Virus genome (UHGV): UHGV-1887975
Strand: one strand, 5' to 3'
DNA from: a virus
Length of the DNA stretch: 11,593 nt
Shown: positions 1-11,593 of the stretch, one piece after another
How positions within the stretch are numbered: position 1 is the first letter of the stretch
Layout: each line of letters starts with the position of its first letter
Translations under genes and position numbers: made by a program
The notes under the pieces: model-generated
Databases searched by the model: none
The model's input: the letters and a program-made list of their open reading frames with translations, nothing else
What the model was told of the DNA's origin: nothing

Positions 1-128
1 CATAAAGTAAGGTCAATTACGCCAAAAATGACATTTTCACTGATCCTGATCGTCTTGCCTTATTGAATATGATTGCTATTTGCATTTAAAATCGAGACCT
101 GGTTTTTCTACTGAAATGATTATGACTT

Positions 129-141
129 CAATGACCCTTGA
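129..141. repeat. 13-bp exact direct repeat CAATGACCCTTGA, left copy; candidate left attachment-site core
   Basis: Identical 13-mer at 129..141 and 11514..11526, the latter immediately distal to the integrase gene. A single 13-mer match in an 11.6 kb window is not by itself significant. Confidence 0.3.
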
Positions 142-258
142 ATAAAGTCTATTCGGTTTTCTTTAGATGTTCGCCTCACATAATCTTCAAGTGATGTTCC
201 TTACATCTCCCTAGAGCGTTAAGATAGTTAACTGATTGAGTTTTCAGGGTATGAAAGG

Positions 259-924
259 ATGAGCAACACTACTGATTGGGGAAGCATGATAGCCAACATA
301 GTTATGGCTACTACCGCTGTCTGGGCTGCATTCAAAGCTAATGACTGGTTTAAAACCAAGCGTCTTGAGAGTGCTGAAAACTTCTATAAAGAAGTACACA
401 ATCTCCATAAACGTTACTATTCAGCTATCCAATACGTTGAGGATTCAAGAAGAATATTTGATAGTCAGTATGGGTTGCATTCGCCAATATCTGAACCTAA
501 AGACAAGTCATTGCAATGGGAGGTTAAATCGAACTCTTACAAAATCATCGCTGAACTAGATTATCTGGCATCGTCACTACAAATGATGGATGCAATGGGT
601 AACAAACTTAGCCCTAAATCGGCTTCACTGGTTAGTGATATGATGGAAGCACATGGACGATTCTGTAATGATGTGATGAACTTCAATGACTCAGTTTGGA
701 AGGTTATAAGGGCAGGTATAACTGAAGAGAACATCCCACATACGCGAGGCTATGTGAACGGCGATTACATGGCTATCCTTACCAGTATGGATGAACCTGT
801 AAGAATATCTTTTAAGTTAAAAGAAATCAGTTTTAAAGATTTTTACTTACATGAAACTACTATGCAGTCAGTAATAACGAGGCTGAAATCGCTTATCGCC
901 AGAACAGGTAAAAACAGGACATAA
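259..924 (+). CDS. Hypothetical protein, 221 aa, with predicted N-terminal transmembrane anchor
   Basis: Uninterrupted 666-nt ORF. Residues about 10-26 (IANIVMATTAVWAAF) form a hydrophobic helix followed by a charged soluble domain. The AAAGGA purine run abuts the ATG at 259 with essentially no spacer, so the true start may be the in-frame ATG at 286. No recognisable family motif. Confidence 0.55.
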   Translation: MSNTTDWGSMIANIVMATTAVWAAFKANDWFKTKRLESAENFYKEVHNLHKRYYSAIQYVEDSRRIFDSQYGLHSPISEPKDKSLQWEVKSNSYKIIAELDYLASSLQMMDAMGNKLSPKSASLVSDMMEAHGRFCNDVMNFNDSVWKVIRAGITEENIPHTRGYVNGDYMAILTSMDEPVRISFKLKEISFKDFYLHETTMQSVITRLKSLIARTGKNRT

Positions 925-1112
925 ACAGGTTAGTACCTATGCAATTTAACGGTATTTTTCCAAGTATCTATGCAATCCTACACAGATTCTATACAGTATC
1001 GACATAGTTTCCTTTTGGTATAACTTATTGAAATATATAAAGAATCTGTGAAGCCCCTTTTCAGGGTAAACTGTATCGTGTTAGTCGTCCCTCTCTCGAC
1101 TCCTAGAAAAGT

Positions 1113-1142
1113 GCTATATACAGGGCTATATAATGCTATATA
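1113..1142. repeat. Three tandem copies of GCTATATA (starts 1113, 1125, 1135)
   Basis: Direct reading: GCTATATAcaggGCTATATAatGCTATATA, spacing 12 and 10 bp. Contains a TATAAT hexamer at 1129..1134. Confidence 0.5.
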
Positions 1143-2591
1143 GATAGTTGGTCACATGGTGTAACTATCAAACTACTTAACAGTTTCCTACGTGAAAGTT
1201 AGAAAGTGATAGTTATAGTTACCTTGTCAAATCTTCGTAGTCCATTCTTAAAAAATCACTTACAGACACCTTAATATCTATACAGATTTCATGTAGAACA
1301 CGATTAGTGCGTAGAAGAGTCATTATGTTAAAAACGAACTGTATACGTATCAGTACTGATTTATAAGGGTTTTGTGTATTTGAAGATAAGAGGCTATACA
1401 GCACCTTGAGAGCATGTCTTCTAAGTCATTGATACATAAGGTCACAGAAGTTTGTGTCTGTTACAGAGAAAACTGGATAGGACTTCACAGAACTACAAAA
1501 TGTTACAGCTATTGATAGGTGAAATCTTCTTGATAGATGCCTTGAAGTGTGGTGAAGGTTTCTTGAGGTGGAGCTAAACAGATGCTATGAAGAAAGTCAA
1601 TAGTTGGTTATAGATATTTTAACTGCTTTTGCAAAGGGGGTGCTGTATCGTGAATCTGGGGTACTTAACAGCCATCAATCATGAGGTAGATTCTACCGAA
1701 TCAACTGTGTAGATATTTTTTAAGATTATCGGTGAAGGGGGAATGCAGAGGGGGGTACTACGATTTTTATAAAAATTTTCAGAAGCCAAATAACTACTGT
1801 GTATATTTTGCACAATCCTGCCAAACCTCATAGAAAGCTCTGTAGCGAGTTTTAACCCCATTTTTAGGGGTAACCTGTAGGGATGTACCACCCACCTTAA
1901 AATAAAGGGGTAAAATCGCTTAGAATGCGTTACAGAGCGTCTGAGAAGCTATATTCACAGATTTTACTAAAGTCTCAGACTTCTAAGTAGTCTTTTTAAC
2001 GGGAGGGTTCTTTCTCATGTATCACCCTCTCTTCCCGCTAAGTAAGCTACACAGACCTAGAGAACATGCCTTCACAGCATCTATATCAGGTCAGATTTAG
2101 AGGGTTTTGATAGAATTTTCAAAGGTACTTGACAGATAACTATGAAGTTGTTAGGAAGAATTGTTTAACGGGAGGAAAGATACGATATAACCCGAAGGGA
2201 AAGTATCATCTTAACAGTGATTGTAAGAGATACCTGAAAAGCTCCTCTTAACAGAACTACCAAGAAGAGAGGGAACGATAAGACCAGAGGTAGTGACCTG
2301 TTAAATAGTTCGTTTCAAAGCTCTTAAGAGTCTGTTAAGTAAGGGCTATGTGAACAATCTTACCATTTTGTCAATGCTCTTGTCTTTGACCTAAATCAAT
2401 AAAATGTATCGTTTGATATGGTTTTAAGCAAGATGGCTAAAAATCTTTTTAGAGGGGCGCTTCGCTTGTGTCACTATGTTCTTTCTCTCCCTGTCTAAGA
2501 GGGGGGTTACAGAGGTCTTTCAAGTCTCAATAGACAAACCGAGGAACGCAGGAAACCGAGGGAAGAAAAACTATTGTGATTACCCTGAACA

Positions 2592-2625
2592 AGGTCTGTA
2601 AAGGTCGTTTAAGAGGTCGGTTAAG
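2592..2625. repeat. Three tandem AGGTC-containing units of 10-12 bp (AGGTC at 2592, 2602, 2614); iteron-like
   Basis: Direct reading: aAGGTCtgtaa / AGGTCgtttaag / AGGTCggttaag. The last two units are 12 bp and differ at one position. Confidence 0.5.
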
Positions 2626-2749
2626 AAAGGAGCTTCCCTCTCTGGGGTTGTCGCTCTTCTCTCGCTTGGTGGATTGATTAGGGGGTATGTTATACAAGCC
2701 CAACTAAGAAGACCTCTGAAGCTTACCTGTGAAGAAGCTGAACAGCTAT

Positions 2750-2900
2750 TATATTGGGTGATTACAACTCATTGAAAAATAAGCATTTTTAGAAATCACT
2801 GTTAAGGTTGCAGAGTTGTCTGTGAGGAGACTTGTCTGCTCTCTATATTGGGTGGTTACAACTTATTGAAAAATAAGAACTTTTAGAAATCACTGTCAGA
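2750..2900. repeat. Pair of 57-bp imperfect direct repeats (2750..2806 and 2844..2900), 94-bp period
   Basis: Aligned by eye: TATATTGGGTGaTTACAACTcATTGAAAAATAAGcatTTTTAGAAATCACTGT versus TATATTGGGTGgTTACAACTtATTGAAAAATAAGaacTTTTAGAAATCACTGT, roughly 50 of 57 identical. Confidence 0.6.
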
Positions 2901-2998
2901 GAGGTGAATACTTGATAGATACAGCTTTCCGGTTCTGTCAAGTCATTTTTTAATAGATAGCATAAAATGCTAAAGATACCCCTATACCATCACGTACA

Positions 2999-3030
2999 GG
3001 GGGTTTTGAAGGGGGTTTAACGGGGGTCTG
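2999..3030. repeat. Three tandem G5-tract units (GGGGG at 2999, 3011, 3022)
   Basis: Direct reading: GGGGGTTTTGAA / GGGGGTTTAAC / GGGGGTCTGTG, spacing 12 and 11 bp. Overlaps the 3' end of the - strand small ORF. Confidence 0.5.
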
Positions 3031-3193
3031 TGTGGTCATTATCCTTAAGGTCAAGCGTCCATGTACGACCGAACAGTTTAAAGACAACAAGCACTCTGAC
3101 GAGGACGTAGCGAAGTAGCAGGCCTGCAATAAGTCCAATACCTCCACCAGCCCATACATCAGGTGACCCCAATTCTGGAGGGAGATTTACCAT
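3017..3193 (-). CDS. Putative small membrane protein, 58 aa (MVNLPPELGSPDVWAGGGIGLIAGLLLRYVLVRVLVVF...)
   Basis: Internal ATG of the track ORF 3017..3235 at 3191..3193 is preceded on the - strand by AAGGA about 7 nt upstream. It encodes a strongly hydrophobic glycine-rich helix of about 23 residues. It lies within locally GC-richer sequence, antisense to all neighbouring genes. Could be spurious. Confidence 0.35.
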   Translation of the reverse strand: MVNLPPELGSPDVWAGGGIGLIAGLLLRYVLVRVLVVFKLFGRTWTLDLKDNDHTDPR

Positions 3194-3410
3194 TAAATTT
3201 CCTTGTAAGACGCTCTCAATCGCATTCTGACACAAAAAAGTACCTGACCTTATAGTTGACCTGAAGAGGCCATTTAACTCGTTACAGAGCGATTGAAGAG
3301 GTCTGTGTGCAATGCAATAACCATGTGACCACTCTCATAGCCACGCCTCATATTTTACTCTCCCCATAGAACCATTATACCACAGATGTTAATGAAATGT
3401 TAAAAAGTGC

Positions 3411-3439
3411 TTGACATTAGTCTTTGAAAATGCTAGTAT
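3411..3439 (+). promoter_or_regulatory. Sigma70-type promoter: TTGACA, 17-bp spacer, TAGTAT
   Basis: Consensus -35 TTGACA at 3411..3416, 17-nt spacer, -10 TAGTAT at 3434..3439 (4 of 6 to TATAAT), about 48 bp upstream of the ATG at 3488. A TTAACAGAGG word sits at the expected transcription start. Confidence 0.55.
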
Positions 3440-3487
3440 TGTATATAAGTTAACAGAGGATTAACAATTATAAGGACTAGCTTATGA

Positions 3488-4042
3488 ATGAACGACAGAG
3501 AATTTAGAGCGATGCTTCAGGCATCAAGAGAACGCAACAAGCACAACTCCTACGCTTACACAAACAACCCCACCAGCTACGAACTACCAGCCTTTTCCAA
3601 ATCCGAACGTAAAAGCATTGAAGCGGTCATTCGTAGCATTACGCCACGAGGCAGATATATGCCAACACGCAAAACAACAAAGAATAACTTAAAAACTTTC
3701 TTGATGAGTTTTGACAGCTACGAACAATTACCGTCACGAATTGAAGATGTAATTATCGGCACTTGTCGCAGCTTTGGAAGGGATAACTATCACCGGAAAG
3801 TTTTCTATTTGCTTCGAAGCCTTGATGAGATTAACTCAAGCACAGTGACGAGCCATCTTCAAAGACAAGCAACCAGACTTAGCCACGAGCTACCATCTGA
3901 TAAGTATTGCGCTAATTTAACCACCATTTGCAATAAAGTTATCGAGACAATCAATCATCATGTTGGGGTTGGTAATATCAGCCTTACGACCAGTGAGCCA
4001 GACTTTGAATTTGACGTATACGCACAAGCAGAGGAATTTTAA
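3488..4042 (+). CDS. Hypothetical protein, 184 aa
   Basis: First gene after the predicted promoter; AAGGA about 10 nt upstream of the ATG. Basic, Ser/Thr/Arg-rich. No motif I can recognise. Confidence 0.65.
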   Translation: MNDREFRAMLQASRERNKHNSYAYTNNPTSYELPAFSKSERKSIEAVIRSITPRGRYMPTRKTTKNNLKTFLMSFDSYEQLPSRIEDVIIGTCRSFGRDNYHRKVFYLLRSLDEINSSTVTSHLQRQATRLSHELPSDKYCANLTTICNKVIETINHHVGVGNISLTTSEPDFEFDVYAQAEEF

Positions 4043-4043
4043 A

Positions 4044-4325
4044 ATGGGAAATAAACACACACTAACCAGAGTTACAAAGACAGCCTTTGAAGAACTTAAC
4101 CGAATCAAAAACATTACAGGTCTGCCACACTCAGCAGTGATGAAGCTTGCAATTAACCGTGATATTAACGAGCAGGATTTGCTTAATAGTCGTTTAGAGG
4201 CAGCAAGACACCATATCAGGATTAAGCAAGATGACCTTGATAGTCTGAAATCTTTAAATGCTTTTGGACTGGATTTAGCAAGGTTACTAAGTATCAAAAT
4301 TCACAAATTAGCGATGGAGGTTTAA
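4044..4325 (+). CDS. Hypothetical small protein, 93 aa (start moved to the RBS-supported ATG)
   Basis: Track ORF 3960..4325 would overlap the upstream gene by about 80 nt. The in-frame ATG at 4044 is preceded by GAGGAA (4031..4036) and begins 2 nt after the upstream stop. Its stop overlaps the next start (TAATG). Confidence 0.6.
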   Translation: MGNKHTLTRVTKTAFEELNRIKNITGLPHSAVMKLAINRDINEQDLLNSRLEAARHHIRIKQDDLDSLKSLNAFGLDLARLLSIKIHKLAMEV

Positions 4326-4711
4326 TGTATGACTTTTATAAACATCGTGACCATTTGGTAAGATTTGACGGTAAAGTCTGGAAAGACGTAACACAAACCA
4401 ATAAGCCCAAGTTTACCCACCAGCAATTAGCCTCAAGATTTGATATCTGGGCTGAAGCACAAAAAGATAATGGTGATTTCGAGTTTATCAGAGGTTTTGA
4501 TTATGCTTACGAAAGCGACCTTAAAGACGCCATTGAATTAATGGAGAACTTCAACTCTATTAAAAATAGTGACAAGCACAAAGCCAACGGTAACAGATAC
4601 GATAAAGATTTAATCATTGATGCAATCACCAAAGGACAATCACAAAGTTATATTTCTGAGAAATACGGCTTATCACGTAGTCAATACTACAAGATTAAAG
4701 CGTCTGTGTAA
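4325..4711 (+). CDS. Putative DNA-binding protein with C-terminal helix-turn-helix, 128 aa; possible transcriptional activator
   Basis: The C-terminal segment DKDLIIDAITKGQSQSYISEKYGLSRSQYYKIKASV has the classic pattern of a helix-turn-helix as found in small phage activators and sigma region-4-like domains. The start is translationally coupled to the upstream gene. Family assignment is an inference. Confidence 0.6.
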   Translation: MYDFYKHRDHLVRFDGKVWKDVTQTNKPKFTHQQLASRFDIWAEAQKDNGDFEFIRGFDYAYESDLKDAIELMENFNSIKNSDKHKANGNRYDKDLIIDAITKGQSQSYISEKYGLSRSQYYKIKASV

Positions 4712-4723
4712 GTCTGTGAGAAT

Positions 4724-4792
4724 GAGTGAGACTCAAAGATGAGCTACCCTATTACTAAGGTGTCTCACTCCCTCTGTAACCCGCATGGTTAC
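4724..4792 (+). promoter_or_regulatory. Two consecutive hairpin-forming inverted repeats in the gap between genes
   Basis: Perfect 9-bp inverted repeat GAGTGAGAC (4724..4732) / GTCTCACTC (4762..4770) with a 29-nt loop, followed by a 6-bp stem GTAACC (4776..4781) / GGTTAC (4787..4792) with a 5-nt loop. No U-tract follows either, so they are not classic terminators. Confidence 0.4.
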
Positions 4793-4849
4793 TGGCCTCA
4801 GAATGGCTATTTTGGCAGATTTAAGATGTGTTTTTATAGGATTTTAAAA

Positions 4850-5173
4850 ATGAATAATTTCCCACTACAGATTTTTATTGATACCGACACCGCCATGATG
4901 ATTCAGGCTTTCACTGATGTAGGTGTTAGCATTGACTTTGATAAGTTGTTAGAGTTAATGGCTGATNATNCNGANANCATCTNTGACTTTATTCACTCGG
5001 TGGAGTTTAACGAGCCTCGAATGATGTTACCAATTACAGACAGTAATATGAAAAGATTGGTTATTGAGCAAACGAACAAATACAGTATTTCCCCAGAGCA
5101 ATTTTTGAAAGGTGCTGTGACAATCCTGTACAGCGATAATATTTTGGTTACGGATTCCGTGAGGGTTCACTAA
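4850..5173 (+). CDS. Hypothetical protein, about 107 aa (alternative start 4739 gives 144 aa); contains ambiguous bases
   Basis: Track ORF 4739..5173. The ATG at 4739 lies inside the hairpin region, so the in-frame ATG at 4850 is preferred, but neither has a strong RBS. Codons 4967..4984 include N, so several residues are undefined. Confidence 0.45.
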   Translation: MNNFPLQIFIDTDTAMMIQAFTDVGVSIDFDKLLELMADXXXXIXDFIHSVEFNEPRMMLPITDSNMKRLVIEQTNKYSISPEQFLKGAVTILYSDNILVTDSVRVH

Positions 5174-5250
5174 TGGGCTTAATAATTGCTTGGACGTTGC
5201 TTGGCTTATTTGTTGGTTGCTGGGTGGGTAACACAGTAAATAAGAATTGA
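5173..5250 (+). CDS. Candidate micro-ORF encoding a 25-aa hydrophobic peptide (MGLIIAWTLLGLFVGCWVGNTVNKN)
   Basis: Its ATG overlaps the upstream stop (TAATG at 5171..5175), suggesting translational coupling. The peptide is almost entirely one transmembrane-like helix. Below the length cut-off of the ORF track and could be fortuitous. Confidence 0.3.
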   Translation: MGLIIAWTLLGLFVGCWVGNTVNKN

Positions 5251-5468
5251 TGTTATCAATCTGTTAAAAGCTGTTGACAAATAACCTTAAGCATGAGATG
5301 ATGGTAATAGGGGGCAACTCTTCCTGAATTAAACTATTAATCATTCTACATCAATGATAGTTATTCTGAGTTGGAAAGGTGCAATGCTTTTCGTCATGGC
5401 CTATTTAGCCCACACTAGATAGGCTATCTCAAAAAGTCTTTGTTTATTCATTGAATCCTTTACAGATT

Positions 5469-5496
5469 GCCCTAATCATGAGTTAGGGCGTTTTTT
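5469..5496 (+). terminator. Rho-independent terminator
   Basis: Perfect 7-bp stem GCCCTAA (5469..5475) / TTAGGGC (5483..5489), 7-nt loop, followed by G then TTTTTT (5491..5496). Confidence 0.65.
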
Positions 5497-5667
5497 AAGA
5501 GTTTTTAAAGAAATTTCTTCACCAGCCCTTTATAGCGTTTTAGTTATCTAGGGCTTTTTCAGCTTTTAAAAAGCATACTTGGCAAACGCTTTTAAGTCTC
5601 TTCTAAGTTCGTAGGCTGTCAGGTGTGCTTTTTAAAAACTGAATATTACTTAGAAGAGGAAAAAACA

Positions 5668-6378
5668 ATGACAAACGATTTATATATTAACGGCAGAAAG
5701 ATTGATAGCTTCGGGGACTGGTCACCACAGGGTGAACATCCGCTACATACTATTCAGCGTAAAGAACACGATGAAAGAATTAAGCTTGAGCAAGAGTTAA
5801 AGATGTCACCAAAGGTAATTTCCTTTGTGTCTCCTGAGCCTCAAGAAATGCCTGATGTATGCAAAACTGAAGCACTATTTAATCTTGAGCGTGAATATTA
5901 CCCACTGCTAAAAGCACAGCGTATTAAACTAGATGACGCTTACAGCAAAGTTACCCTGATGCAATCAGCTATTGAGCCATCAGAATTTGAGATTCAGGAT
6001 GAATTGTCACAGAAACCATTTGTCTATTACAAATATGAAGACAATGATGGTTTTGGTACTTTTCCTGAGAATATCCCAGACGTGATTAATAATCTTCCTG
6101 ATGGATATCGAATTGTGAAGATGGTTAAAGCTTCAAGAGGTGCTGGTCAGTTTATTTTCATGACCGATAGGAGCGATGAAGAACTCTGTGAAATTGCTAA
6201 ACAGAACATCTTAGCATCACGTAACAAGCAACTTGAAAATGTTAAGTTGTATCTCTCAAGAGAGCTTCAGGCTATGAAAGAGCTTGTTAGTGAATATGAA
6301 TCACAGAAGAAGATTGCTATGCAGGCTGATATTGAGCAGTTAGTGAAGATTTCTCAGAAATATGCAAAGGCACTTTAA
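5668..6378 (+). CDS. Hypothetical protein, 236 aa (start moved to the RBS-supported ATG)
   Basis: Track ORF starts at 5623. The in-frame ATG at 5668 is preceded by GAGGA (5656..5660) with 7-nt spacing. Acidic, with a coiled-coil-like C-terminus. No recognisable motif. Confidence 0.65.
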   Translation: MTNDLYINGRKIDSFGDWSPQGEHPLHTIQRKEHDERIKLEQELKMSPKVISFVSPEPQEMPDVCKTEALFNLEREYYPLLKAQRIKLDDAYSKVTLMQSAIEPSEFEIQDELSQKPFVYYKYEDNDGFGTFPENIPDVINNLPDGYRIVKMVKASRGAGQFIFMTDRSDEELCEIAKQNILASRNKQLENVKLYLSRELQAMKELVSEYESQKKIAMQADIEQLVKISQKYAKAL

Positions 6379-6402
6379 CTATGAATTAAAAGGAGGTGGT
6401 GA

Positions 6403-6606
6403 ATGATTGATTTAACAGAACGCTATGAGCTTATTAAAGCAATTAGTGAACGATTGAAAGAACAACCCAACAAACCAAAACGAATCAAATCATCCACCTC
6501 TAAGCAAAAGAATAGAATCAGAAGAATCGCTAAATGGTGTCTTGATAAATTACCAAGTGATTGTCAGATTGTCGGTGAAGATGGTAATTATTATCTGGTT
6601 AGGTAA
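6403..6606 (+). CDS. Hypothetical small basic protein, 67 aa
   Basis: Strong RBS AAGGAGG (6390..6396) 6 nt upstream of the ATG. Lys/Arg-rich centre (KPKRIKSSTSKQKNRIRRIAK). Followed by a terminator. Confidence 0.65.
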   Translation: MIDLTERYELIKAISERLKEQPNKPKRIKSSTSKQKNRIRRIAKWCLDKLPSDCQIVGEDGNYYLVR

Positions 6607-6631
6607 AAAGATTGGTTGGGTAAAAATCAAC

Positions 6632-6672
6632 GGGAGAGATTATCGAGTGACATCGGTAGCTCTCCCTTTTTT
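6632..6672 (+). terminator. Rho-independent terminator
   Basis: Stem GGGAGAG (6632..6638) / CTCTCCC (6660..6666) enclosing a 21-nt loop, followed directly by TTTTTT (6667..6672). Confidence 0.6.
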
Positions 6673-6702
6673 GTATATGAGATAGTCTTCTATCGAATCC
6701 TG

Positions 6703-6801
6703 TGTGCTACGTGATGATTCGGATAAGAATTATCCTCATGAAATCTGTAAAACTAATACCCACACTGAAAAATAGAATTTACGTACAACACGCTTAAAGA
6801 G
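6703..6801 (+). promoter_or_regulatory. Upstream regulatory cassette, copy 1: GTGTGCTACGTGA, ATACCCAC-N-AAAAAT, TTTACGTA, CACGCTTAAAGAG
   Basis: The same four blocks occur in the same order upstream of the gene at 9102. This copy carries an extra palindrome GGATAAGAATTATCC (6721..6735) between the first and second blocks. Confidence 0.55.
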
Positions 6802-6812
6802 GTGAAACATGA

Positions 6813-8936
6813 ATGAGCAAATTCACAGTTGATAGTTTTATCGTTGAGCTAGGCTTCAATGAAAACGTTATTAAGGGACTGCAAAGAGTTGAAAAGGCAG
6901 CTTTGCAGTCAGCACAAAGAATTGAAAAGAACCTAAATAAAGGTTTCAGGATTAATACAAAGCAGCTTGATAGTAATTTAACGGCTTCTTTAGGGCAGCT
7001 TGAAAGGAAGTTTAATAAGGCCTTTGACAAGATTGAACAGAGAGCAAGAAATACTAAAGCTTTCCAGTTTACCACCAGATTTAATGACACTGTTAATCCT
7101 CCAAAACAACCAAGACAGCCACGAATTAGCGGAAACAGAGCAATCACAGCAGCTTACTCAGCGAATATGAGCAAGCTAAAAGGCCTTAACCCAATTGTCG
7201 AGAAATACATTAAGAGTCAGTTTTACGGGCTATCTGCTAAAGCCGGGTCAATGGATTCTTCAAAATTCAATGAGAAGTTAGCTCAGTTAAACGCTTCAGT
7301 CAGAGAAGCAATTGCTAAAGCCAGAGGTCATACATCCACCAGCATTAATGGTGACAGAGCAGCTAATAGTCTTGATAACCTGTCTTCAGCAGCAGTTAAA
7401 ACAGCAGGTGCATTTATCTCAATGCAGGCTGTATTAGCCAGTTATCAGAAGATTATGGAAATTGGTTTACAGCGTGCAAGTGCTGAACGTTCAATTGATT
7501 TCGTATTTGATAAAGATGCAGGTCAGGTAAAAGAGTTCACAAAGTCATTAGCTCAAACAACGGGTTTAGATATCGCTGAACTGCAATCACAGTTTGCTGG
7601 TTTTGGTGCTTCAGCTAAAGAGTCTATGGGTATTCAAGGTTCTGAAGAACTTTTTAAAAATATGATTGGCTATGCTCGTCTGATGGGGAGAAGTGAAGAA
7701 GAGATTAAGCGAGCACTGACAGCATTATCACAGATGGCTGGTAAGGGTCAGATTATGGCTGAAGAGCTTAAGGGGCAACTGGCTGAAGCTGTTCCTGGTA
7801 TGGTTCAGGTATTCGCTAAAGCAACCGGAAAGACTGAACAGGAATTATTTGATGCCATGAAGAAGGGGGCTTTAAAATCTGCCGATACTCTTCAGAAGGT
7901 CACTCAGGAACTGAATAAACAAATCACCGCTAAAGGTGGCTGGAAAGCCATTTCAGAAAGTACTCAGGCACAACTAGGGAACTTGAAAAACTCTTGGAAT
8001 ACCACGCTTGATAGTATCTTCAGAGGTTCTGAAAATGGTCTGCAAGATTTTACACGAAGCCTAACAACGCTTTTAAACGCTCTTGGTGGAAGTGGTAAAA
8101 GTCTTGGTGAATCTCTTGGTAGTCTCATGACTTCTATGTCACATGGTGTCGATAGTCTGACCGATATTAGTTACAAGGTGCGAGCGTTCTTTGATGAGGT
8201 GACATTAGCTTACCGTTCACTAAATGACACTCAGAGGAAAATTGTTGATGGTTTATCTGATGGGTTAATTGATGGTTTGAAGATGCTTGCTGTGGCTGTT
8301 ACTGCTCAAAAGGCTGCAAATGTAGCTGGAGGCTTGTTAAACCTTGCAAATGCTGTTACTTCATTCGGTGATGCTGTTAATAAAGCTAAAGCTGGCAAGG
8401 CTGGTTCTTCAGGTGGTGCGCTAAGTAAAGTCGGTAGAGTTGTCCTTTATGCTGAGTTGGTAAACTTTGCTCTTGATAATTTAAACCCTGAAGCAGCTAA
8501 GAATCCGAACTTACACCAATCAGGTATTGGTACAGAAACAAACTTCAATCCTGAATACAAAGGCGATTCTAAACCAAACCAAATTAATGAGGGGTGGGCT
8601 AAGATTGGTAGTTCTATCGCTGACTGGTTTAATGGTGCAGCTAATAAAATTGCTAACTTACAAGAACCGATGAATAACTTCGTAAATAACACACAATCAA
8701 CTCCACCAGCTATCGACACGGTGAATATCAATGCTCAATTAGCTATGGCTGTATCAGAGTTAGGAAGAAAGGTTGATGCTTTAACAGTAGAAGCTCGGAA
8801 GCCTTTATCAGTTAATATCAAAGGTGAAGCAATTGTTAGGCCGGATGAGCCATCTTTCTTTAATTTCAATCAATCAGCTAATGACCAGTTCACGCAGGAT
8901 ATGCTCTTAAGTTCAAGCTATCCAGAGGAAGAATGA
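6813..8936 (+). CDS. Tape-measure-domain protein, 707 aa (putative phage tail length tape-measure protein)
   Basis: The central segment GYARLMGRSEEEIKRALTALSQMAGKGQIMAEELKGQLAEAVPGMVQVFAKATGKTEQELFDAMKKGALKSADTL matches, as I recall it, the conserved tape-measure signature of lambda gpH-type proteins. N-terminus is coiled-coil-like; C-terminal third is Asn/Gln/Ser-rich low complexity. RBS AGAGGTG about 10 nt upstream. Confidence 0.75.
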   Translation: MSKFTVDSFIVELGFNENVIKGLQRVEKAALQSAQRIEKNLNKGFRINTKQLDSNLTASLGQLERKFNKAFDKIEQRARNTKAFQFTTRFNDTVNPPKQPRQPRISGNRAITAAYSANMSKLKGLNPIVEKYIKSQFYGLSAKAGSMDSSKFNEKLAQLNASVREAIAKARGHTSTSINGDRAANSLDNLSSAAVKTAGAFISMQAVLASYQKIMEIGLQRASAERSIDFVFDKDAGQVKEFTKSLAQTTGLDIAELQSQFAGFGASAKESMGIQGSEELFKNMIGYARLMGRSEEEIKRALTALSQMAGKGQIMAEELKGQLAEAVPGMVQVFAKATGKTEQELFDAMKKGALKSADTLQKVTQELNKQITAKGGWKAISESTQAQLGNLKNSWNTTLDSIFRGSENGLQDFTRSLTTLLNALGGSGKSLGESLGSLMTSMSHGVDSLTDISYKVRAFFDEVTLAYRSLNDTQRKIVDGLSDGLIDGLKMLAVAVTAQKAANVAGGLLNLANAVTSFGDAVNKAKAGKAGSSGGALSKVGRVVLYAELVNFALDNLNPEAAKNPNLHQSGIGTETNFNPEYKGDSKPNQINEGWAKIGSSIADWFNGAANKIANLQEPMNNFVNNTQSTPPAIDTVNINAQLAMAVSELGRKVDALTVEARKPLSVNIKGEAIVRPDEPSFFNFNQSANDQFTQDMLLSSSYPEEE

Positions 8937-8952
8937 TTTCTTATATATATCC

Positions 8953-9026
8953 GTGTGCTACGTGAAATCTTCTGAACGGATATACCCACTAAAAATTATT
9001 TTTTACGTAGCTCACGCTTAACAGAG
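8953..9026 (+). promoter_or_regulatory. Upstream regulatory cassette, copy 2: GTGTGCTACGTGA, ATACCCACTAAAAAT, TTTACGTA, CACGCTTAACAGAG
   Basis: Same four blocks as 6703..6801 in the same order and similar spacing, but without the palindrome insert. Ends about 75 nt upstream of the ATG at 9102. Confidence 0.55.
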
Positions 9027-9101
9027 AAAATACTTATATATCAAAGGTTTGGTTAAAAATGATTAAAATACACTAAGCCTTTGAAATCAAAGGAGAATTT
9101 A

Positions 9102-9872
9102 ATGATTTACACTAATCAGCTTCGTTACAGTGGCAAAGATGGTGTTTACTTCCATCTACAAGGCCAACCAGATAATTTCTTGTCACTATCAGCAACTGAG
9201 AACATGGAATATGACAGCCCTATGATGGTGACCACTCAAAATATGCAATCAGGGCAGACTGTAACAGATAATGTAATGCGTTCACCAAGAACTATTTCAA
9301 TCAGTGGTGTGGTTGTGGTTGGTGAATCCGGTAGTATCCTTATCTCAAGAGATAATAAGCTGGTGGAAAACTTCATAGACACTCTTGAAAACTGGCGTGA
9401 CCAGAAGCAAATTATCTCAGTTGTCTGTAAAGATGGTATTAAGATTGACGACTCAATTATTACAAGCTTTAAAGCCTCTAAAGATGTTGGTATTTCAAAC
9501 GGCCTAAGAATCCAGCTAACTTTTCAGGAAATCAACTTTAAAGCTATCGTAGGGCAAACTGATATTTCGACTGCTACTGGCAAGACCGCTACCACGAATG
9601 ATGGTGGTGCTACTTCTAAGAAGAATACAGGGAATACTACGACAAGTCTTGGAAGCCCTATGCTGACCTGTAAAGAGCTTTTTAGCTATTCGGCAAGTAA
9701 GTTATCAGATGAAGCGCTAAAAGCCCGTGTAACGTGCTCTAAGAGCGTTAGCGTTAAAAATGGTGAGAGCACCTTCACAGCCTCAGCTAATGAGCAAGCT
9801 TCAAAGGTGCTTAAGTCGGGTAATGCTTTACGGAAGTACTCTGTGAATCCGAATAAGAAGGGCACTTATTGA
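9102..9872 (+). CDS. Hypothetical protein, 256 aa; possible tail-associated structural protein by position only
   Basis: The track ORF begins at a TTG (9081). The ATG at 9102 has AAGGAG (9090..9095) at 6-nt spacing. Ser/Thr/Gly-rich. Assignment as tail-associated rests only on its position after the tape-measure-like gene. Confidence 0.65.
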
Positions 9873-9876
9873 GACA

Positions 9877-9899
9877 TAAAAAGGGGCTTCATAGCCCCT
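9877..9899. terminator. Terminator hairpin between convergent genes
   Basis: Perfect 7-bp GC-rich stem AGGGGCT (9882..9888) / AGCCCCT (9893..9899) with a 4-nt loop. AAAAA (9877..9881) on the + strand gives a U-tract after the stem for the - strand transcript (integrase); a weaker A/T stretch follows for the + strand. Confidence 0.6.
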
Positions 9900-9904
9900 G
9901 AAAA

Positions 9905-11425
9905 TTACAGTTGATAAGCGTCAATATCCAGTAGCTCTTTATCAGCAATTTCAAAGATTGGTGACCCATCATTTAGCGGTAACGGGTTTGTAGGTATGGT
10001 TATTTCAGTGTCGTTCTGTAGCGTTACAGTTACCGAATCCTTACCCAATGTCAGCCCCTTTAGATGCTTGGACAAAATCAACTGACACTCGACACGACCC
10101 GCTTTAGTTGTCAGGTCAATATCTTTAAGCTGGGGTAGTTCCTTATCAGTGAGTGAAGCCTTACGCCTCATGTTATCAATCGTGGTCTGTAGCTCTGTGC
10201 GCTTCTGGTTCAGTTCCTTAAGCTGAATTTTTAGTTCATCAATATCATCCATCTCAAGAAGTAGGGCGGTAGCTTTCTTGATTCTGGTTGTGACAATTTC
10301 AACCTCATGCTGTAGAGATGCAATCTTCCCCTCTGCTTCTCCATCATTCCCCACGTCAATCATCCCCAGAAAATTATCAATCATCCACTTATCAAACGGT
10401 TTACGCTTCAACGGAGGAACATCACAGCGACCATCAAGATGGTTATTGCACCGATAAACGCCCTGATACTTATTCTTAGTCCCTGTAGGGTGAACACTAG
10501 CCCCGCACTGACACCTAAACAGACCTTTGAAGATGTTAATCGTTAATGGATTATCACTTGCAGGTGTACGGCCTATACGGTTCTTACCAAGAATCTCTTG
10601 AGCTTTATTGAACGTTGAAGCATCTATAGCGGCTTCGTAGTAGTTCGGTATAGCGGGGCGGTCATTACGTTGTGATGCTGGTAACGTGCCTATCGTTGTC
10701 TCTGACCTTAAGATGGTGCGTACAGAGTGAACACTAAACCCGTTAGCATCTTTACGGCGACTAAACGACTTTATACCGTTGCTTTGAAGGTGACGGGCGA
10801 TGTTATGCAGACTTTCACCACTTAGCAGCAGCTTGAAAATCAGTCTTACAGTCTCAGCGTGTTCATTGAGTTTAAAAGTATCGGGGTCAATCCATCCGGG
10901 AACCATCTTTGTTAAACGTTGTTCACCAGCAAGGGCAAGTTTTGCACGTTGCTCCCATTTCTGAGAAACACGGAAAGACTTCTGCTTAGATTCCTGATGC
11001 GCTATGTAGGCTTTGACACGCTGGATGATTGAGATTCCTAAATCATCGGCTAAAGCATCCTTTGTGTAGATAAGACCATCTTGTAGCGTGTGAATCTCTA
11101 ACCCGTTGCCTAAGATGCGATTCATCAAGGCTTCTGTTTCAAGGTGTTCTAAGCGGCCTATACGGTCGATACTCTCAACAAGCAAAATCGTACCTTCTGG
11201 AAACTCCCCAGACTCAATACGGGCTAACATGTCACCAAACTGACCAGTAAGATGCTTACCTTTGTAACCGGATAGGCCTTCATCACTGAAAGACGCTACT
11301 ACTTGAGCATCGCTATTCTTCTTCAGCCACTGCTTGAACAGGTCGTTTTGTCGTCTGGTTGAATCTGCACCTTCAGCGCCTTGTATAGCTGAACTGTACC
11401 GAAGGTATGTAATTACGCTCCTCAT
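9905..11425 (-). CDS. int: Large serine recombinase (site-specific integrase), 506 aa
   Basis: N-terminal resolvase-type catalytic domain with candidate nucleophilic Ser in YLRYSSAIQ, a D-x-G-x-SG motif (SDEGLSGYKG) and LVESIDRIGR resembling the resolvase DRLGR box. A large recombinase domain follows, then a Cys-rich zinc-ribbon-like segment (CQCG...C...C) and a C-terminal coiled coil. This is the typical large-serine-recombinase architecture. GGGAG RBS upstream on the - strand. Confidence 0.9.
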   Translation of the reverse strand: MRSVITYLRYSSAIQGAEGADSTRRQNDLFKQWLKKNSDAQVVASFSDEGLSGYKGKHLTGQFGDMLARIESGEFPEGTILLVESIDRIGRLEHLETEALMNRILGNGLEIHTLQDGLIYTKDALADDLGISIIQRVKAYIAHQESKQKSFRVSQKWEQRAKLALAGEQRLTKMVPGWIDPDTFKLNEHAETVRLIFKLLLSGESLHNIARHLQSNGIKSFSRRKDANGFSVHSVRTILRSETTIGTLPASQRNDRPAIPNYYEAAIDASTFNKAQEILGKNRIGRTPASDNPLTINIFKGLFRCQCGASVHPTGTKNKYQGVYRCNNHLDGRCDVPPLKRKPFDKWMIDNFLGMIDVGNDGEAEGKIASLQHEVEIVTTRIKKATALLLEMDDIDELKIQLKELNQKRTELQTTIDNMRRKASLTDKELPQLKDIDLTTKAGRVECQLILSKHLKGLTLGKDSVTVTLQNDTEITIPTNPLPLNDGSPIFEIADKELLDIDAYQL

Positions 11426-11488
11426 GGTGATAAACTCCCATGCAATTGATTCTCATTTAAAGATAAGCTTATAACCATTATGGCTAAT

Positions 11489-11526
11489 GCTACAATGCCG
11501 AATAGCTACAATACAATGACCCTTGA
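11489..11526. repeat. Integrase-proximal repeat cluster: GCTACAATG / GCTACAAT / ACAATG, then the right copy of CAATGACCCTTGA; candidate attachment-site region
   Basis: Direct reading of 11489..11526. The 13-mer at 11514..11526 is identical to 129..141. Sequence to the right becomes GC-rich (cctcgccgcttcccctggccgacg...). Confidence 0.4.
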
Positions 11527-11593
11527 TTTACCTCGCCGCTTCCCCTGGCCGACGTTACTTTCGGTCTGCATTCATGGTGCTGTTGTGGCGGGG

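What the first reader, a model, noticed from the sequence alone, without database searches (positions are those of the whole stretch)
1176..3459. Recurring short words: CTTAACAG, GTTACAGAG, TTTAACGGGAGG, CGTTACAGAGCG
CTTAACAG occurs at 1176, 1664, 2210, 2247 (and again at 9017 in the cassette upstream of the 9102 gene). GTTACAGAG occurs at 1462, 1929, 2505, 3281. The exact 12-mers TTTAACGGGAGG (1995 and 2164) and CGTTACAGAGCG (1928 and 3280) each occur twice. For an 8-mer I would expect well under one occurrence in 11.6 kb, so four to five copies suggest a motif. Because TTAACAGAGG also sits at the predicted transcription start of the 3411 promoter, these may mark multiple start or processing sites, or binding sites of one regulator.
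Basis: seen in the sequence. Interest (0 to 1): 0.5.

Follow-up and report, generated by a model that had tools for sequence, protein, structure and literature searches.

The report
Phage-terminus-like word code in satellite island
The recurring short words are real and belong to a larger family (CTNNACAG, 21 copies) filling the gene-poor part of an 11.4-kb mobile island in E. coli. The same words, and a sequence spanning the genome-end boundary, occur at the termini of Felix O1-type phages, so the island is probably an undescribed phage parasite copying its helper's DNA-recognition signals.

Summary
All four words occur where stated; two GTTACAGAG copies start at 1460 and 2506, not 1462 and 2505. 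Four 8-mers have at least 4 copies against 0.06 expected.

CTTAACAG is the commonest form of a broader motif, CTNNACAG. It has 14 plus-strand and 7 minus-strand copies in 925-3487, against 0.8 expected per strand.

The window is an 11,385-bp island with a large serine recombinase, inserted into the start of tonB. It carries Felix O1-type tape-measure and Dit-like tail genes.

Its 2.1-2.5 kb gene-poor region shares three blocks with the ORF-free terminal-repeat region of Felix O1-like phages. One block spans the right boundary of the 613-bp direct terminal repeat. CTGTTAAG, the reverse complement of CTTAACAG, is a top repeated word there, and TGTTAR words sit 11 bp apart.

In the island the words form symmetric clusters around a phage-like core and around the 3411 promoter.

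No evidence supports multiple transcription starts or a structured RNA.

Best reading: protein-recognition words of a helper-mimicking cis-acting region (packaging or replication) plus operator-like sites. Function is inferred, not shown. GTTACAGAG and TTTAACGG are island-specific and unexplained.

The parts
129..141 (+). attL copy of the 13-bp repeat CAATGACCCTTGA (left island junction)
   Evidence: An empty-site E. coli sequence joins window 1-141 directly to 11514-11592.
142..11526 (.). Integrated island of 11,385 bp, G+C about 34-46%, satellite-like
259..924 (+). Variable cargo ORF (221 aa, no family match)
   Evidence: Absent from relatives L014 and L015. No Pfam, PHROG or PADLOC hit.
925..3016 (.). 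ORF-poor region holding most word copies; mosaic, with cargo genes inserted at different points in relatives
1113..1148 (+). Block C: CTATATA-rich segment similar to the phage region right of the terminal repeat
   Evidence: 83-89% over 27-36 nt in several relatives
1176..1183 (+). CTTAACAG copy
1460..1468 (+). GTTACAGAG copy (island-specific word)
1596..1797 (+). Block A: homologue of the right boundary of the Felix O1-type direct terminal repeat plus about 140 bp beyond it. Includes a 43-bp core (1678-1720) 93% identical to 29 phages.
1664..1671 (+). CTTAACAG copy; the phage repeat boundary (GGGCTACC|AAGCAG) aligns between 1665 and 1666
1928..1939 (+). CGTTACAGAGCG; forms a local inverted repeat with 1837-1855
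1995..2006 (+). TTTAACGGGAGG copy; reads TTTAACAG in three relatives
2164..2175 (+). TTTAACGGGAGG copy; its TTTAACGG 8-mer is intact in 10 of 10 relatives
2210..2339 (.). Symmetric cluster: TTAACAG (2211), TTAACAG (2248), phage-like core, CTGTTAA (2298), CTGTTAA (2332); centre about 2275
2268..2296 (+). Block B core GGGAACGATAAGACCAGAGGTAGTGACC, homologous to the middle of the phage terminal repeat
2506..2514 (+). GTTACAGAG copy
2750..2896 (+). Two 53-nt direct repeats (2750-2802 and 2844-2896, 92% identical)
2799..2806 (-). CTGTTAAG (reverse complement of CTTAACAG)
3016..3023 (+). TTTAACGG copy
3017..3193 (-). Small conserved membrane-like ORF (58 aa, MVNLPPELGSPDVWAGGGIGLIAG...)
3280..3291 (+). 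CGTTACAGAGCG copy in the divergent promoter region
3374..3403 (-). Sigma-70-like promoter on the minus strand (TTAACA-18-TATAAT, 11 of 12)
3388..3466 (.). Exact dyad about 3427: TGTTAA (3388), TGTTAA (3399), promoter 3411-3439, TTAACA (3450), TTAACA (3461). Spacing within each pair is 11 bp. Operator-like geometry.
3488..4325 (+). 184-aa and 93-aa ORFs (unknown function). This module co-varies with the right half of the gene-poor region.
4325..6606 (+). 128-aa (weak HTH), 107-aa, 236-aa and 67-aa ORFs, all without family assignment
6813..8936 (+). Tape measure protein. First 47 aa are 70% identical to phage HY02 gp67; the rest is 29% identical.
9017..9024 (+). CTTAACAG in the cassette upstream of the Dit-like gene; intact in all 6 relatives checked
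9102..9872 (+). Dit-like tail/baseplate protein, 71% aa identical to HY02 gp68, the gene next to the phage tape-measure gene
9905..11425 (-). Large serine recombinase (integrase)
11514..11526 (+). attR copy of CAATGACCCTTGA, overlapping the tonB start codon

Best explanation
The words are reiterated protein-recognition elements in the cis-acting, gene-poor part of a satellite-like island that depends on Felix O1-type (Ounavirinae) lytic phages.

The region is a rearranged mimic of the helper's terminal-repeat region. It keeps three things:
1. A homologue of the right boundary of the helper's 613-bp direct terminal repeat, where the terminase must cut.
2. A core from the middle of that repeat.
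3. The helper's word vocabulary: CTGTTAAG/CTTAACAG, TGTTAA/TTAACA, and more generally CTNNACAG.

Proposed mechanism (inferred, not shown). During helper infection, a helper DNA-binding factor that normally reads the TGTTAR/CTGTTAAG arrays in the phage terminal repeat also binds the island's copies. Felix O1-type phages have no recognised small terminase. Binding would mark island DNA for packaging, and possibly for replication.

The TTAACA pairs lie 11 bp apart in exact dyad symmetry around the 3411 promoter. They would act as operators coupling expression of the island's 184-aa operon to the same or a related protein.

GTTACAGAG and TTTAACGG are absent from the phage region. They are most simply sites for island-encoded proteins.
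For: Shown by computation:
- The word excess is real.
- Word columns are more conserved than non-word columns in 10 relatives: 92% against 84%, P about 0.017.
- TTAACAG and GTTACAG remain top 7-mers in relatives whose 184-aa protein is only 66-79% identical.
- The element is a discrete island with a 13-bp att repeat, a serine integrase, and phage-like G+C of about 34-46% across sliding windows.
- Its Dit-like gene is 71% aa identical to HY02 gp68, and 80-84% nt identical to Felixounavirus genes.
- Phage Ro111lw carries an exact 613-bp terminal duplication, as PhageTerm predicted (PMC6454146). This repeat lies in the 1.7-kb ORF-free region of these phages.
- Window 1596-1797 aligns across the right repeat boundary, at E down to 2e-27 in relative L025.
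- Block B aligns to the middle of the repeat in seven relatives.
- 6 of HY02's 21 CTTAACAG/CTGTTAAG copies lie in that 1.7-kb region, which is the genome's top CTNNACAG hotspot.
- Words enriched in the phage region are 2.2-2.4 times denser in the island's gene-poor region than in its genes. P < 0.002 for k = 6 and 7; P = 0.008 for k = 8.
- Phage TGTTAR words are phased at 11 bp, in 11 of the 20 spacings of 40 bp or less. The island has the same 11-bp pairs in exact dyad symmetry around its promoter, conserved in relatives.
- CTNNACAG orientation is segregated, plus-strand copies on the left and minus-strand copies on the right, switching at block B (18 of 21, P about 0.011).
Against: - No experiment shows excision, packaging or helper dependence.
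- The homologous blocks lie in a different order in the island (C, A, B) than in the phage (B, A, C).
- No counterpart of the left repeat boundary was found in the expected place, so a T7-style pair of cuts cannot be drawn.
- The dominant phage word, CTTGTTAG, is nearly absent from the island.
- The island's words are mostly isolated, 30-230 bp apart, not phased arrays.
- The 43-bp core is missing from some phages (HY02, Ro111lw) that still package normally. It therefore cannot be essential for all of them.
- Variant islands with a 324-aa HTH_36 gene lack window 2164-3487 and have few TTAACAG copies. This argues that part of the vocabulary serves the island's own module rather than the helper.
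- An 11.4-kb genome would underfill an 87-kb capsid. No capsid-remodelling gene is recognisable.
Confidence: 0.5

Rival explanations
1. All the words are operators of the island's own regulator(s). They control promoters in and around the gene-poor region, with no role in packaging or replication. The resemblance to the phage is shared ancestry only.
For: - TGTTAA x2 and TTAACA x2 lie in exact dyad symmetry around the sigma-70-like promoter at 3411-3439, conserved in relatives.
- CTTAACAG at 9017 lies upstream of the Dit-like gene and is intact in all 6 relatives checked.
- The right half of the region (2164-3487) is swapped together with the 184/93-aa module in variant islands. Those variants have few TTAACAG copies.
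Against: - Most copies are hundreds of bases from any gene or predicted promoter.
- The island keeps a homologue of the helper's repeat boundary, which has no obvious regulatory role.
- No DNA-binding fold could be assigned to the 184-aa or 93-aa proteins.
Confidence: 0.2
2. The words are functionless relics. They are either leftovers of an ancestral phage terminal region or microhomologies at junctions of a recombination-prone cargo hotspot.
For: - The region is a mosaic. Relatives carry an AP2-HNH gene, a Dam methylase, a small serine recombinase or other genes at five or more different points.
- Some breakpoints (about 945, 1260, 1669, 2164) coincide with word copies.
Against: - Word columns are better conserved than their flanks.
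- Symmetric and strand-segregated arrangements are conserved.
- A 13- to 18-fold excess of an 8-bp pattern is hard to maintain without selection.
Confidence: 0.15
3. The words mark several transcription starts or RNA processing sites, or belong to a long structured non-coding RNA.
For: - TTAACAGAGG begins about 3-4 nt after the expected start of the 3411 promoter.
- GTTACAGAG at 1929 follows a TAGAAT hexamer.
- One local hairpin, 1837-1855 with 1920-1938, gives z = -2.9.
Against: - Only 2 of 15 copies follow a -10-like hexamer.
- The promoter-like count is not significantly above shuffles.
- No Rfam family at E <= 1 in the region and no tRNA.
- Fold-energy z-scores are near zero over most of the region on both strands.
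- Cargo genes interrupt the region at many points in relatives.
- Outside the terminal region, the phage's copies of the word lie mostly inside genes.
Confidence: 0.05
4. The recurrence is chance or base composition.
For: The region is A+T-rich (61%).
Against: - Dinucleotide shuffles and Markov simulations never reach the observed counts.
- The same enrichment is seen in the phage terminal region.
Confidence: 0.01

Closest known systems
Short repeat arrays in and beside the terminal repeat of phage T7 (SRL/SRR, CCTAAAG-type words; Dunn & Studier 1983, from my own knowledge, not checked here)
   Same: - Many copies of a 7-8-bp word sit inside and next to a short direct terminal repeat of a lytic phage.
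- The Felix O1-type region shows this directly, including CCTTAAAAG/CTATAAAG words.
- The island shares part of that vocabulary.
   Different: - The word sequence differs.
- The island's copies are dispersed and symmetric rather than tandem.
- They lie in an integrated 11.4-kb element, not at known physical DNA ends.
Satellites that copy the helper's packaging signal (P4 cos identical to P2 cos; SaPI/PICI pac strategies; PLE of Vibrio cholerae with lytic phage ICP1; PICMI with virulent vibriophages, PMC10803314)
   Same: - A small integrative element with few recognisable genes and helper-like structural genes or signals.
- Like PLE, it has a large serine recombinase and a lytic myovirus as presumed helper.
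- Its genome is about one seventh of the helper's.
   Different: - No homology to P4, PICI, cfPICI, PLE or PICMI marker genes.
- It carries a tape measure and a Dit-like gene instead of capsid-redirecting or small-terminase genes.
- Its helper is of the direct-terminal-repeat type.
- Helper dependence is not demonstrated.
Multi-site terminase recognition regions (SPP1 pacL/pacR around pacC; lambda cosB R sites), from my own knowledge
   Same: Several short protein-binding words flank a cleavage or core site, some in helical phase.
   Different: No small terminase is known for Felix O1-type phages (PMC3185647). No binding data exist.
Iteron-type replication origins of plasmids and satellites (PLE, SaPI, P4 ori/crr)
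   Same: Reiterated short words in a non-coding region next to a module of small unknown proteins, partly in inverted orientation around a core.
   Different: - The words are 8 bp and not tandem.
- No Rep, primase or helicase gene is recognisable.
- The only long direct repeats are two 53-mers.

Membership tests
Phage satellite (generic) | Discrete integrative element with its own integrase and att sites | tested here: met
   A 13-bp repeat at 129-141 and 11514-11526, an empty site in other strains, and a large serine recombinase.
Phage satellite (generic) | Lacks a complete set of virion and packaging genes | tested here: met
   Only tape-measure and Dit-like genes are recognisable. No capsid, portal or terminase hit in Pfam or PHROGs. 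Six ORFs remain unassigned.
Phage satellite (generic) | Carries a packaging signal matching the helper's | tested here: inconclusive
   Sequence homology spans the helper's terminal-repeat right boundary and a mid-repeat core. No left-boundary counterpart was found, and function is untested.
Phage satellite (generic) | Induced, replicated and transferred only with a helper phage | not testable with these tools
   Needs infection and transduction experiments. The 11.4-11.5-kb contigs L037 and L038 turned out to be integrated copies with host flanks.
PLE (Vibrio cholerae / ICP1) | Homology to PLE genes (RepA initiator with iteron ori, TcaP and others) | tested here: not met
   No family hit for any ORF other than the integrase, tape-measure and Dit-like genes. 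Only the serine-recombinase class is shared.
P4-like satellites | Primase/helicase alpha, sid/psu/delta, and cos identical to the helper's | tested here: not met
   None detected. The presumed helper is a terminal-repeat phage, not a cos phage (PMC6454146).
PICI / cfPICI / PICMI | Marker genes: tyrosine integrase, pri-rep or primase, small terminase or capsid genes, AlpA/Fis | tested here: not met
   The integrase is a serine recombinase. No such domains were found.
Terminal short-repeat arrays of terminal-repeat phages (T7 SRL/SRR type) | Many copies of one short word in or adjacent to the direct terminal repeat | tested here: met
   Met for the Felix O1-type phages: 27-28 TGTTAR copies, 11-bp phasing. 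The island shares the word CTGTTAAG/CTTAACAG.
Terminal short-repeat arrays of terminal-repeat phages (T7 SRL/SRR type) | Located at the physical ends of packaged DNA | not testable with these tools
   No packaged form of the island is available.
Iteron origin | Tandem, phased direct repeats of about 17-22 bp next to an initiator gene and an A+T-rich unwinding element | tested here: not met
   - Tandem Repeats Finder gives only four short arrays.
- The words are 8 bp and irregularly spaced.
- No initiator gene is recognised.
Sigma-70 promoter / transcription start motif | Word at a fixed distance downstream of a -10 hexamer | tested here: not met
   True for 2 of 15 copies only.
Known structured RNA (Rfam) | Covariance-model match or fold energy below shuffles | tested here: not met
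   No Rfam match in 925-3487 at E <= 1. z-scores are mostly between -2 and +2.

The most novel reading that the evidence does not exclude
The window holds a member of a widespread, undescribed family of satellites of Felix O1-type (Ounavirinae) lytic phages. Parts of the gene-poor region occur in 485 of 5426 complete E. coli genomes.

In this reading, the CTNNACAG/TGTTAA words are the recognition code that these phages, which have no known small terminase, use to mark their direct terminal repeat for packaging. The satellite has copied the code, together with the cut-site boundary, and has wired it to its own promoter so that it senses the helper.
Probability: 0.35. Interest if true: 0.75.

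Novelty: new variant of a known kind. Interest (0 to 1): 0.6.

Why it matters
- It would add a satellite family for a group of lytic phages widely used in Salmonella and E. coli typing, biocontrol and therapy. About 9% of complete E. coli genomes would carry an element able to interfere with, or be spread by, such phages.
- It gives a concrete, testable candidate for the unknown packaging-recognition signal of Felix O1-type phages: an 11-bp-phased TGTTAR/CTGTTAAG code plus the boundary GGGCTACC|AAGCAG.
- It points to an unusual satellite strategy: carrying its own tape measure and Dit-like tail genes instead of capsid or terminase genes.
- The island sits in the first codons of tonB and replaces its promoter, which could alter TonB-dependent uptake and phage or colicin sensitivity.

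Tried and rejected
**RNA explanations**
- Rfam at E <= 1 gave only a chance miRNA hit at 5198. ARAGORN found no tRNA.
- Sliding fold-energy z-scores gave no general RNA signal.

**Promoter explanation**
- The promoter/terminator scan showed that the words do not track -10 boxes.

**Locating the phage ends**
- The UAB_Phi87 record does not start at the physical end.
- BPS15Q2 has no terminal duplication.
- KMM2 has only a 64-bp assembly overlap.
- This was settled only with Ro111lw.

**Regulatory cassette**
- The cassette upstream of the tape-measure and Dit-like genes was searched for in phage HY02 and is absent. It is not a helper late-promoter copy.

**Protein clues to a word-binding factor**
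- The 184-aa protein was modelled at pLDDT 69. Foldseek against PDB gave nothing below E = 0.95.
- The single-sequence model of the 93-aa protein is just two long helices.
- PDB sequence searches were empty.
- PADLOC was empty. NCBIfam gave only sub-threshold hits, including a faint P27-type small-terminase hit for the 93-aa ORF at E = 0.026, far below cut-off.

**Free or packaged island DNA**
- Island-sized contigs L037 and L038 carry host flanks and no terminal overlap.
- No phage record holds the island's unique genes.

**Other**
- Tandem Repeats Finder did not detect the roughly 90-bp spacing of the six plus-strand CTNNACAG copies from 1176 to 1664. A MAFFT alignment of those units shows only weak similarity beyond the word.
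- Literature: no paper in the library combines Felix O1 or Felixounavirus with phage satellites in substance.
Full report
**1. The observation**

Exact counting confirms the words.
- CTTAACAG, plus strand: 1176, 1664, 2210, 2247, 9017. Reverse complement: 2332 and 2799.
- GTTACAGAG, plus strand: 1460, 1929, 2506, 3281.
- TTTAACGGGAGG: 1995 and 2164.
- CGTTACAGAGCG: 1928 and 3280.
- TTAACAGAGG: 3450.

In 1000 dinucleotide-preserving shuffles of 925-3480, no shuffle reached the counts of CTTAACAG (expected 0.09) or GTTACAGAG (0.02). Correcting for post-hoc choice, four 8-mers have at least 4 copies against 0.06 expected, and repeated 8-mers are twice as numerous as expected.

The flanks of the copies are unrelated. 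These are therefore short words, not diverged long repeats.

**2. A broader motif**

The copies share CT-N2-ACAG. In 925-3487 this pattern occurs 14 times on the plus strand and 7 times on the minus strand, against 0.8 expected on each.
- Variants: CTTAACAG x6 counting both strands, CTATACAG x3, CTACACAG x3, CTTCACAG x4, and others.
- Density is 8.2 per kb. The remaining 9 kb of the window holds 11 copies (about 1.2 per kb), two of them in other intergenic regions.
- Orientation is segregated: plus-strand copies lie to the left of about 2290 and minus-strand copies to the right (18 of 21, permutation P about 0.011).

GTTACAGAG (4 plus, 0 minus) and TTTAACGG (4 plus, 0 minus) are separate, strictly plus-strand words.

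**3. What the window is**

The window matches E. coli chromosomes over its full length. It is an insertion between yciI and tonB.

An empty site joins window 1-141 to 11514-11592. The island is therefore 142-11526 (11,385 bp), flanked by CAATGACCCTTGA, and lies within the first codons of tonB.

Gene content:
- A large serine recombinase (9905-11425, minus strand).
- A tape measure protein (6813-8936).
- A Dit-like tail protein (9102-9872).
- Six to seven small ORFs without any family assignment.

G+C is about 34-46% across sliding windows. Felix O1 is 39% (PMC3185647).

The Dit-like gene is 80-84% identical in DNA to Felixounavirus genes and 71% identical in protein to HY02 gp68. That gene lies next to the phage tape-measure gene. 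The island's tape measure shares only its first 47 residues closely with the phage's.

No capsid, portal, terminase or replication gene is recognisable.

The family is common and mosaic:
- Parts of 1300-3480 occur in 485 of 5426 complete E. coli genomes, always on chromosomes.
- The 128-aa protein is listed in 2783 blocks of the assembly collection, and a second insertion site in yecE exists.
- Relatives occur in E. albertii, Shigella and Salmonella records.

**4. The gene-poor region**

From 925 to about 3016 there is no convincing ORF. A small conserved membrane-like ORF lies at 3193-3017 on the minus strand. Divergent sigma-70-like promoters lie at 3403-3374 (minus) and 3411-3439 (plus).

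Relatives keep the region at 75-97% identity. They carry cargo genes at different points within it: an AP2-HNH endonuclease, a Dam methylase, a small serine recombinase and others. The region is therefore a string of short modules, not one long structured unit.

Rfam, tRNA search and fold-energy scans give no RNA signal apart from one hairpin at 1837-1938.

**5. The link to Felix O1-type phages**

Window 1596-1720 is about 73-77% identical to an unannotated stretch in 39 Felixounavirus and Mooglevirus records. Its 43-bp core (1678-1720) is 93% identical in 29 of them.

The stretch lies in a 1.7-kb ORF-free region between convergent gene blocks.

Phage Ro111lw carries an exact 613-bp duplication at its two ends, as PhageTerm predicted (PMC6454146). 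Repeats of 581 and 608 bp are reported for Pr103Blw and UAB_Phi87 (PMC8303462, PMC4837284). Four other records start at the same base.

The repeat maps to HY02 14621-15202 and SP116 locus L003 3468-4068, inside the ORF-free region.
- Left end: ...AATGCTA|GCCCCCTTAACATTTTCTTAACAATTTCTTAACAA.
- Right end...GCTGTTAAGGGCTACC|AAGCAG.

The island block aligns across the right boundary. Phage GGGCTACC|AAGCAG corresponds to island GGGGTACT|TAACAG, so the CTTAACAG copy at 1664 spans the aligned cut position. In relative L025 this alignment extends to 217 nt at E = 2e-27.

Two further blocks recur in several relatives:
- Block B: core GGGAACGATAAG...TAGTGACC at window 2268-2296, matching the middle of the repeat.
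- Block C: window 1113-1148, matching a region right of the repeat.

The order of the blocks differs: C, A, B in the island and B, A, C in the phage.

**6. Shared vocabulary**

The phage region is packed with TGTTAR words, 27-28 copies. Of the 20 spacings of 40 bp or less, 11 are exactly 11 bp and most others are near 20-22 or 31-33 bp.

Of the 21 CTTAACAG/CTGTTAAG copies in the 86-kb HY02 genome, 6 lie there. Most of the others lie inside genes. The region is the genome's top CTNNACAG hotspot.

Words enriched in the phage region are 2.2-2.4 times denser in the island's gene-poor region than in its genes, and exceed Markov simulations. P < 0.002 for k = 6 and 7; P = 0.008 for k = 8, driven by CTTAACAG/CTGTTAAG.

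The dominant phage word CTTGTTAG is nearly absent from the island. GTTACAGAG and TTTAACGG are absent from the phage region.

**7. Organisation of the island's copies**

Two symmetric clusters stand out.
- TTAACAG (2211), TTAACAG (2248), block B core, CTGTTAA (2298), CTGTTAA (2332). The centre is about 2275, and the arrangement is conserved in relatives. The core and the right-hand TGTTAA words align with the phage.
- TGTTAA (3388), TGTTAA (3399), promoter 3411-3439, TTAACA (3450), TTAACA (3461). This is an exact dyad about 3427 with 11-bp spacing within each pair, conserved in relatives. It is the same word and phasing as at the phage repeat's left end.

Six plus-strand CTNNACAG copies from 1176 to 1664 are spaced 89-116 bp apart and end at the boundary homologue.

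**8. Conservation**

Across ten relatives (83-90% identical in this region), word columns are 92% identical against 84% for other columns in 925-3010 (block-permutation P about 0.017).

TTAACAG and GTTACAG remain among the top 7-mers in loci whose 184-aa protein is only 66-79% identical.

TTTAACGG at 1995 reads TTTAACAG in three relatives, which links those two words.

The relatives are not independent, so these P values are rough.

**9. Interpretation**

The best-supported reading is that the words are protein-recognition elements in a cis-acting region that imitates the helper phage's terminal-repeat region.
- Shown: the statistics, the homology to the repeat boundary and core, the shared word and phasing, the symmetric arrangements, and the element's satellite-like anatomy.
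- Inferred: that a helper factor binds them, that this directs packaging or replication of the island, and that the promoter-flanking dyads act as operators.

Variant islands replace the 184/93-aa module with a 324-aa HTH_36 protein. They also replace window 2164-3487 and have few TTAACAG copies. Part of the vocabulary may therefore serve the island's own proteins. This is the main rival reading and probably part of the truth.

**10. Novelty**

Short word arrays at terminal repeats (T7 SRL/SRR, from my own knowledge) and satellites that copy helper packaging signals (P4, PICI, PLE, PICMI; PMC10085698, PMC10803314) are known kinds.

This element shares no marker genes with those families. No paper in the searchable library links Felix O1-type phages with satellites. 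I rate it a new variant of a known kind, with function still to be demonstrated.

Noticed in passing
window 129-141 and 11514-11526: The island is inserted within the first codons of tonB. attR restores the ATG and coding sequence, but the native tonB promoter region is displaced by 11.4 kb. tonB now follows the integrase's upstream region. This could change TonB-dependent uptake and sensitivity to TonB-dependent phages and colicins.
   Followed up: partly
window 6702-6795 and 8953-9024 (also 1183 and 1289): The tape-measure and Dit-like genes share an upstream cassette: GTGTGCTACGTGA, then ACCCAC..AAAAAT, then TTTACGTA..CACGCTTAA[A/C]AGAG. The first and last parts form an inverted repeat (GTGTGCTACGTGA with TTACGTAGCTCAC). 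A weaker pair lies at 1183 and 1289. The cassette is absent from phage HY02.
   Followed up: partly
window 6813-8936: The island's tape measure keeps the helper's first 47 residues (70% identical) but is only 29% identical afterwards. The neighbouring Dit-like protein is 71% identical. This may be a decoy or replacement tail-assembly pair, which is unusual cargo for a satellite.
   Followed up: no
window 3017-3193 (minus strand): A small conserved membrane-like ORF (MVNLPPELGSPDVWAGGGIGLIAG...) is annotated in some relatives (L002, L013, L016) but not in the nearly identical RefSeq record L001.
   Followed up: partly
window 1822-1948 and 3202-3305: Long-range inverted similarity (27-30 nt arms, 77-81% complementary). 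The stretch just upstream of the small minus-strand ORF has a diverged inverted copy 1.3 kb away. Both contain GCG(T)TACAGAGCG-type sequence.
   Followed up: no
window 2750-2802 and 2844-2896: Two 53-nt direct repeats (92% identical, 94 bp apart) are conserved as a pair in relatives. They are a possible iteron-like or operator element of the 184-aa module.
   Followed up: no
window 4968-4983: The window contains several ambiguous bases (N) inside the 107-aa ORF region. They are not present in the 99.8% identical RefSeq copy.
   Followed up: no
window 5668-6378: RefSeq names the 236-aa protein 'transposase'. It has no Pfam, PHROG or NCBIfam support, so the name looks unfounded.
   Followed up: partly
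L018 1-613; L003 3468-4068; L010 14621-15202 (Felix O1-type phages): The phage terminal repeat has three CTTAACA words at its left end, then four TGTTAR words, then further TGTTAR arrays. Spacing is predominantly exactly 11 bp. I found no description of this in the papers read (PMC3185647, PMC4837284, PMC6454146).
   Followed up: partly
L026, L027, L031 (loci): Variant islands replace the 184/93-aa module and window 2164-3487 with a 324-aa HTH_36 protein plus a 98-aa ORF. Other relatives carry Dam methylase, a small resolvase/invertase, an AP2-HNH endonuclease, DUF6904 or IS elements within the gene-poor region. It behaves as a cargo hotspot.
   Followed up: partly
window 1678-1706: The 43-bp core shared with 29 phages contains the near-perfect palindrome GGTAGATTCTACC. 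It is an insertion relative to HY02 and Ro111lw, which lack about 24 nt here.
   Followed up: no
window 4044-4325: The 93-aa ORF gives a faint, sub-threshold NCBIfam hit to the P27-family small terminase (E = 0.026, 14.5 bits against a cut-off of 45.6). This is only a lead for a satellite-encoded packaging specificity factor.
   Followed up: no
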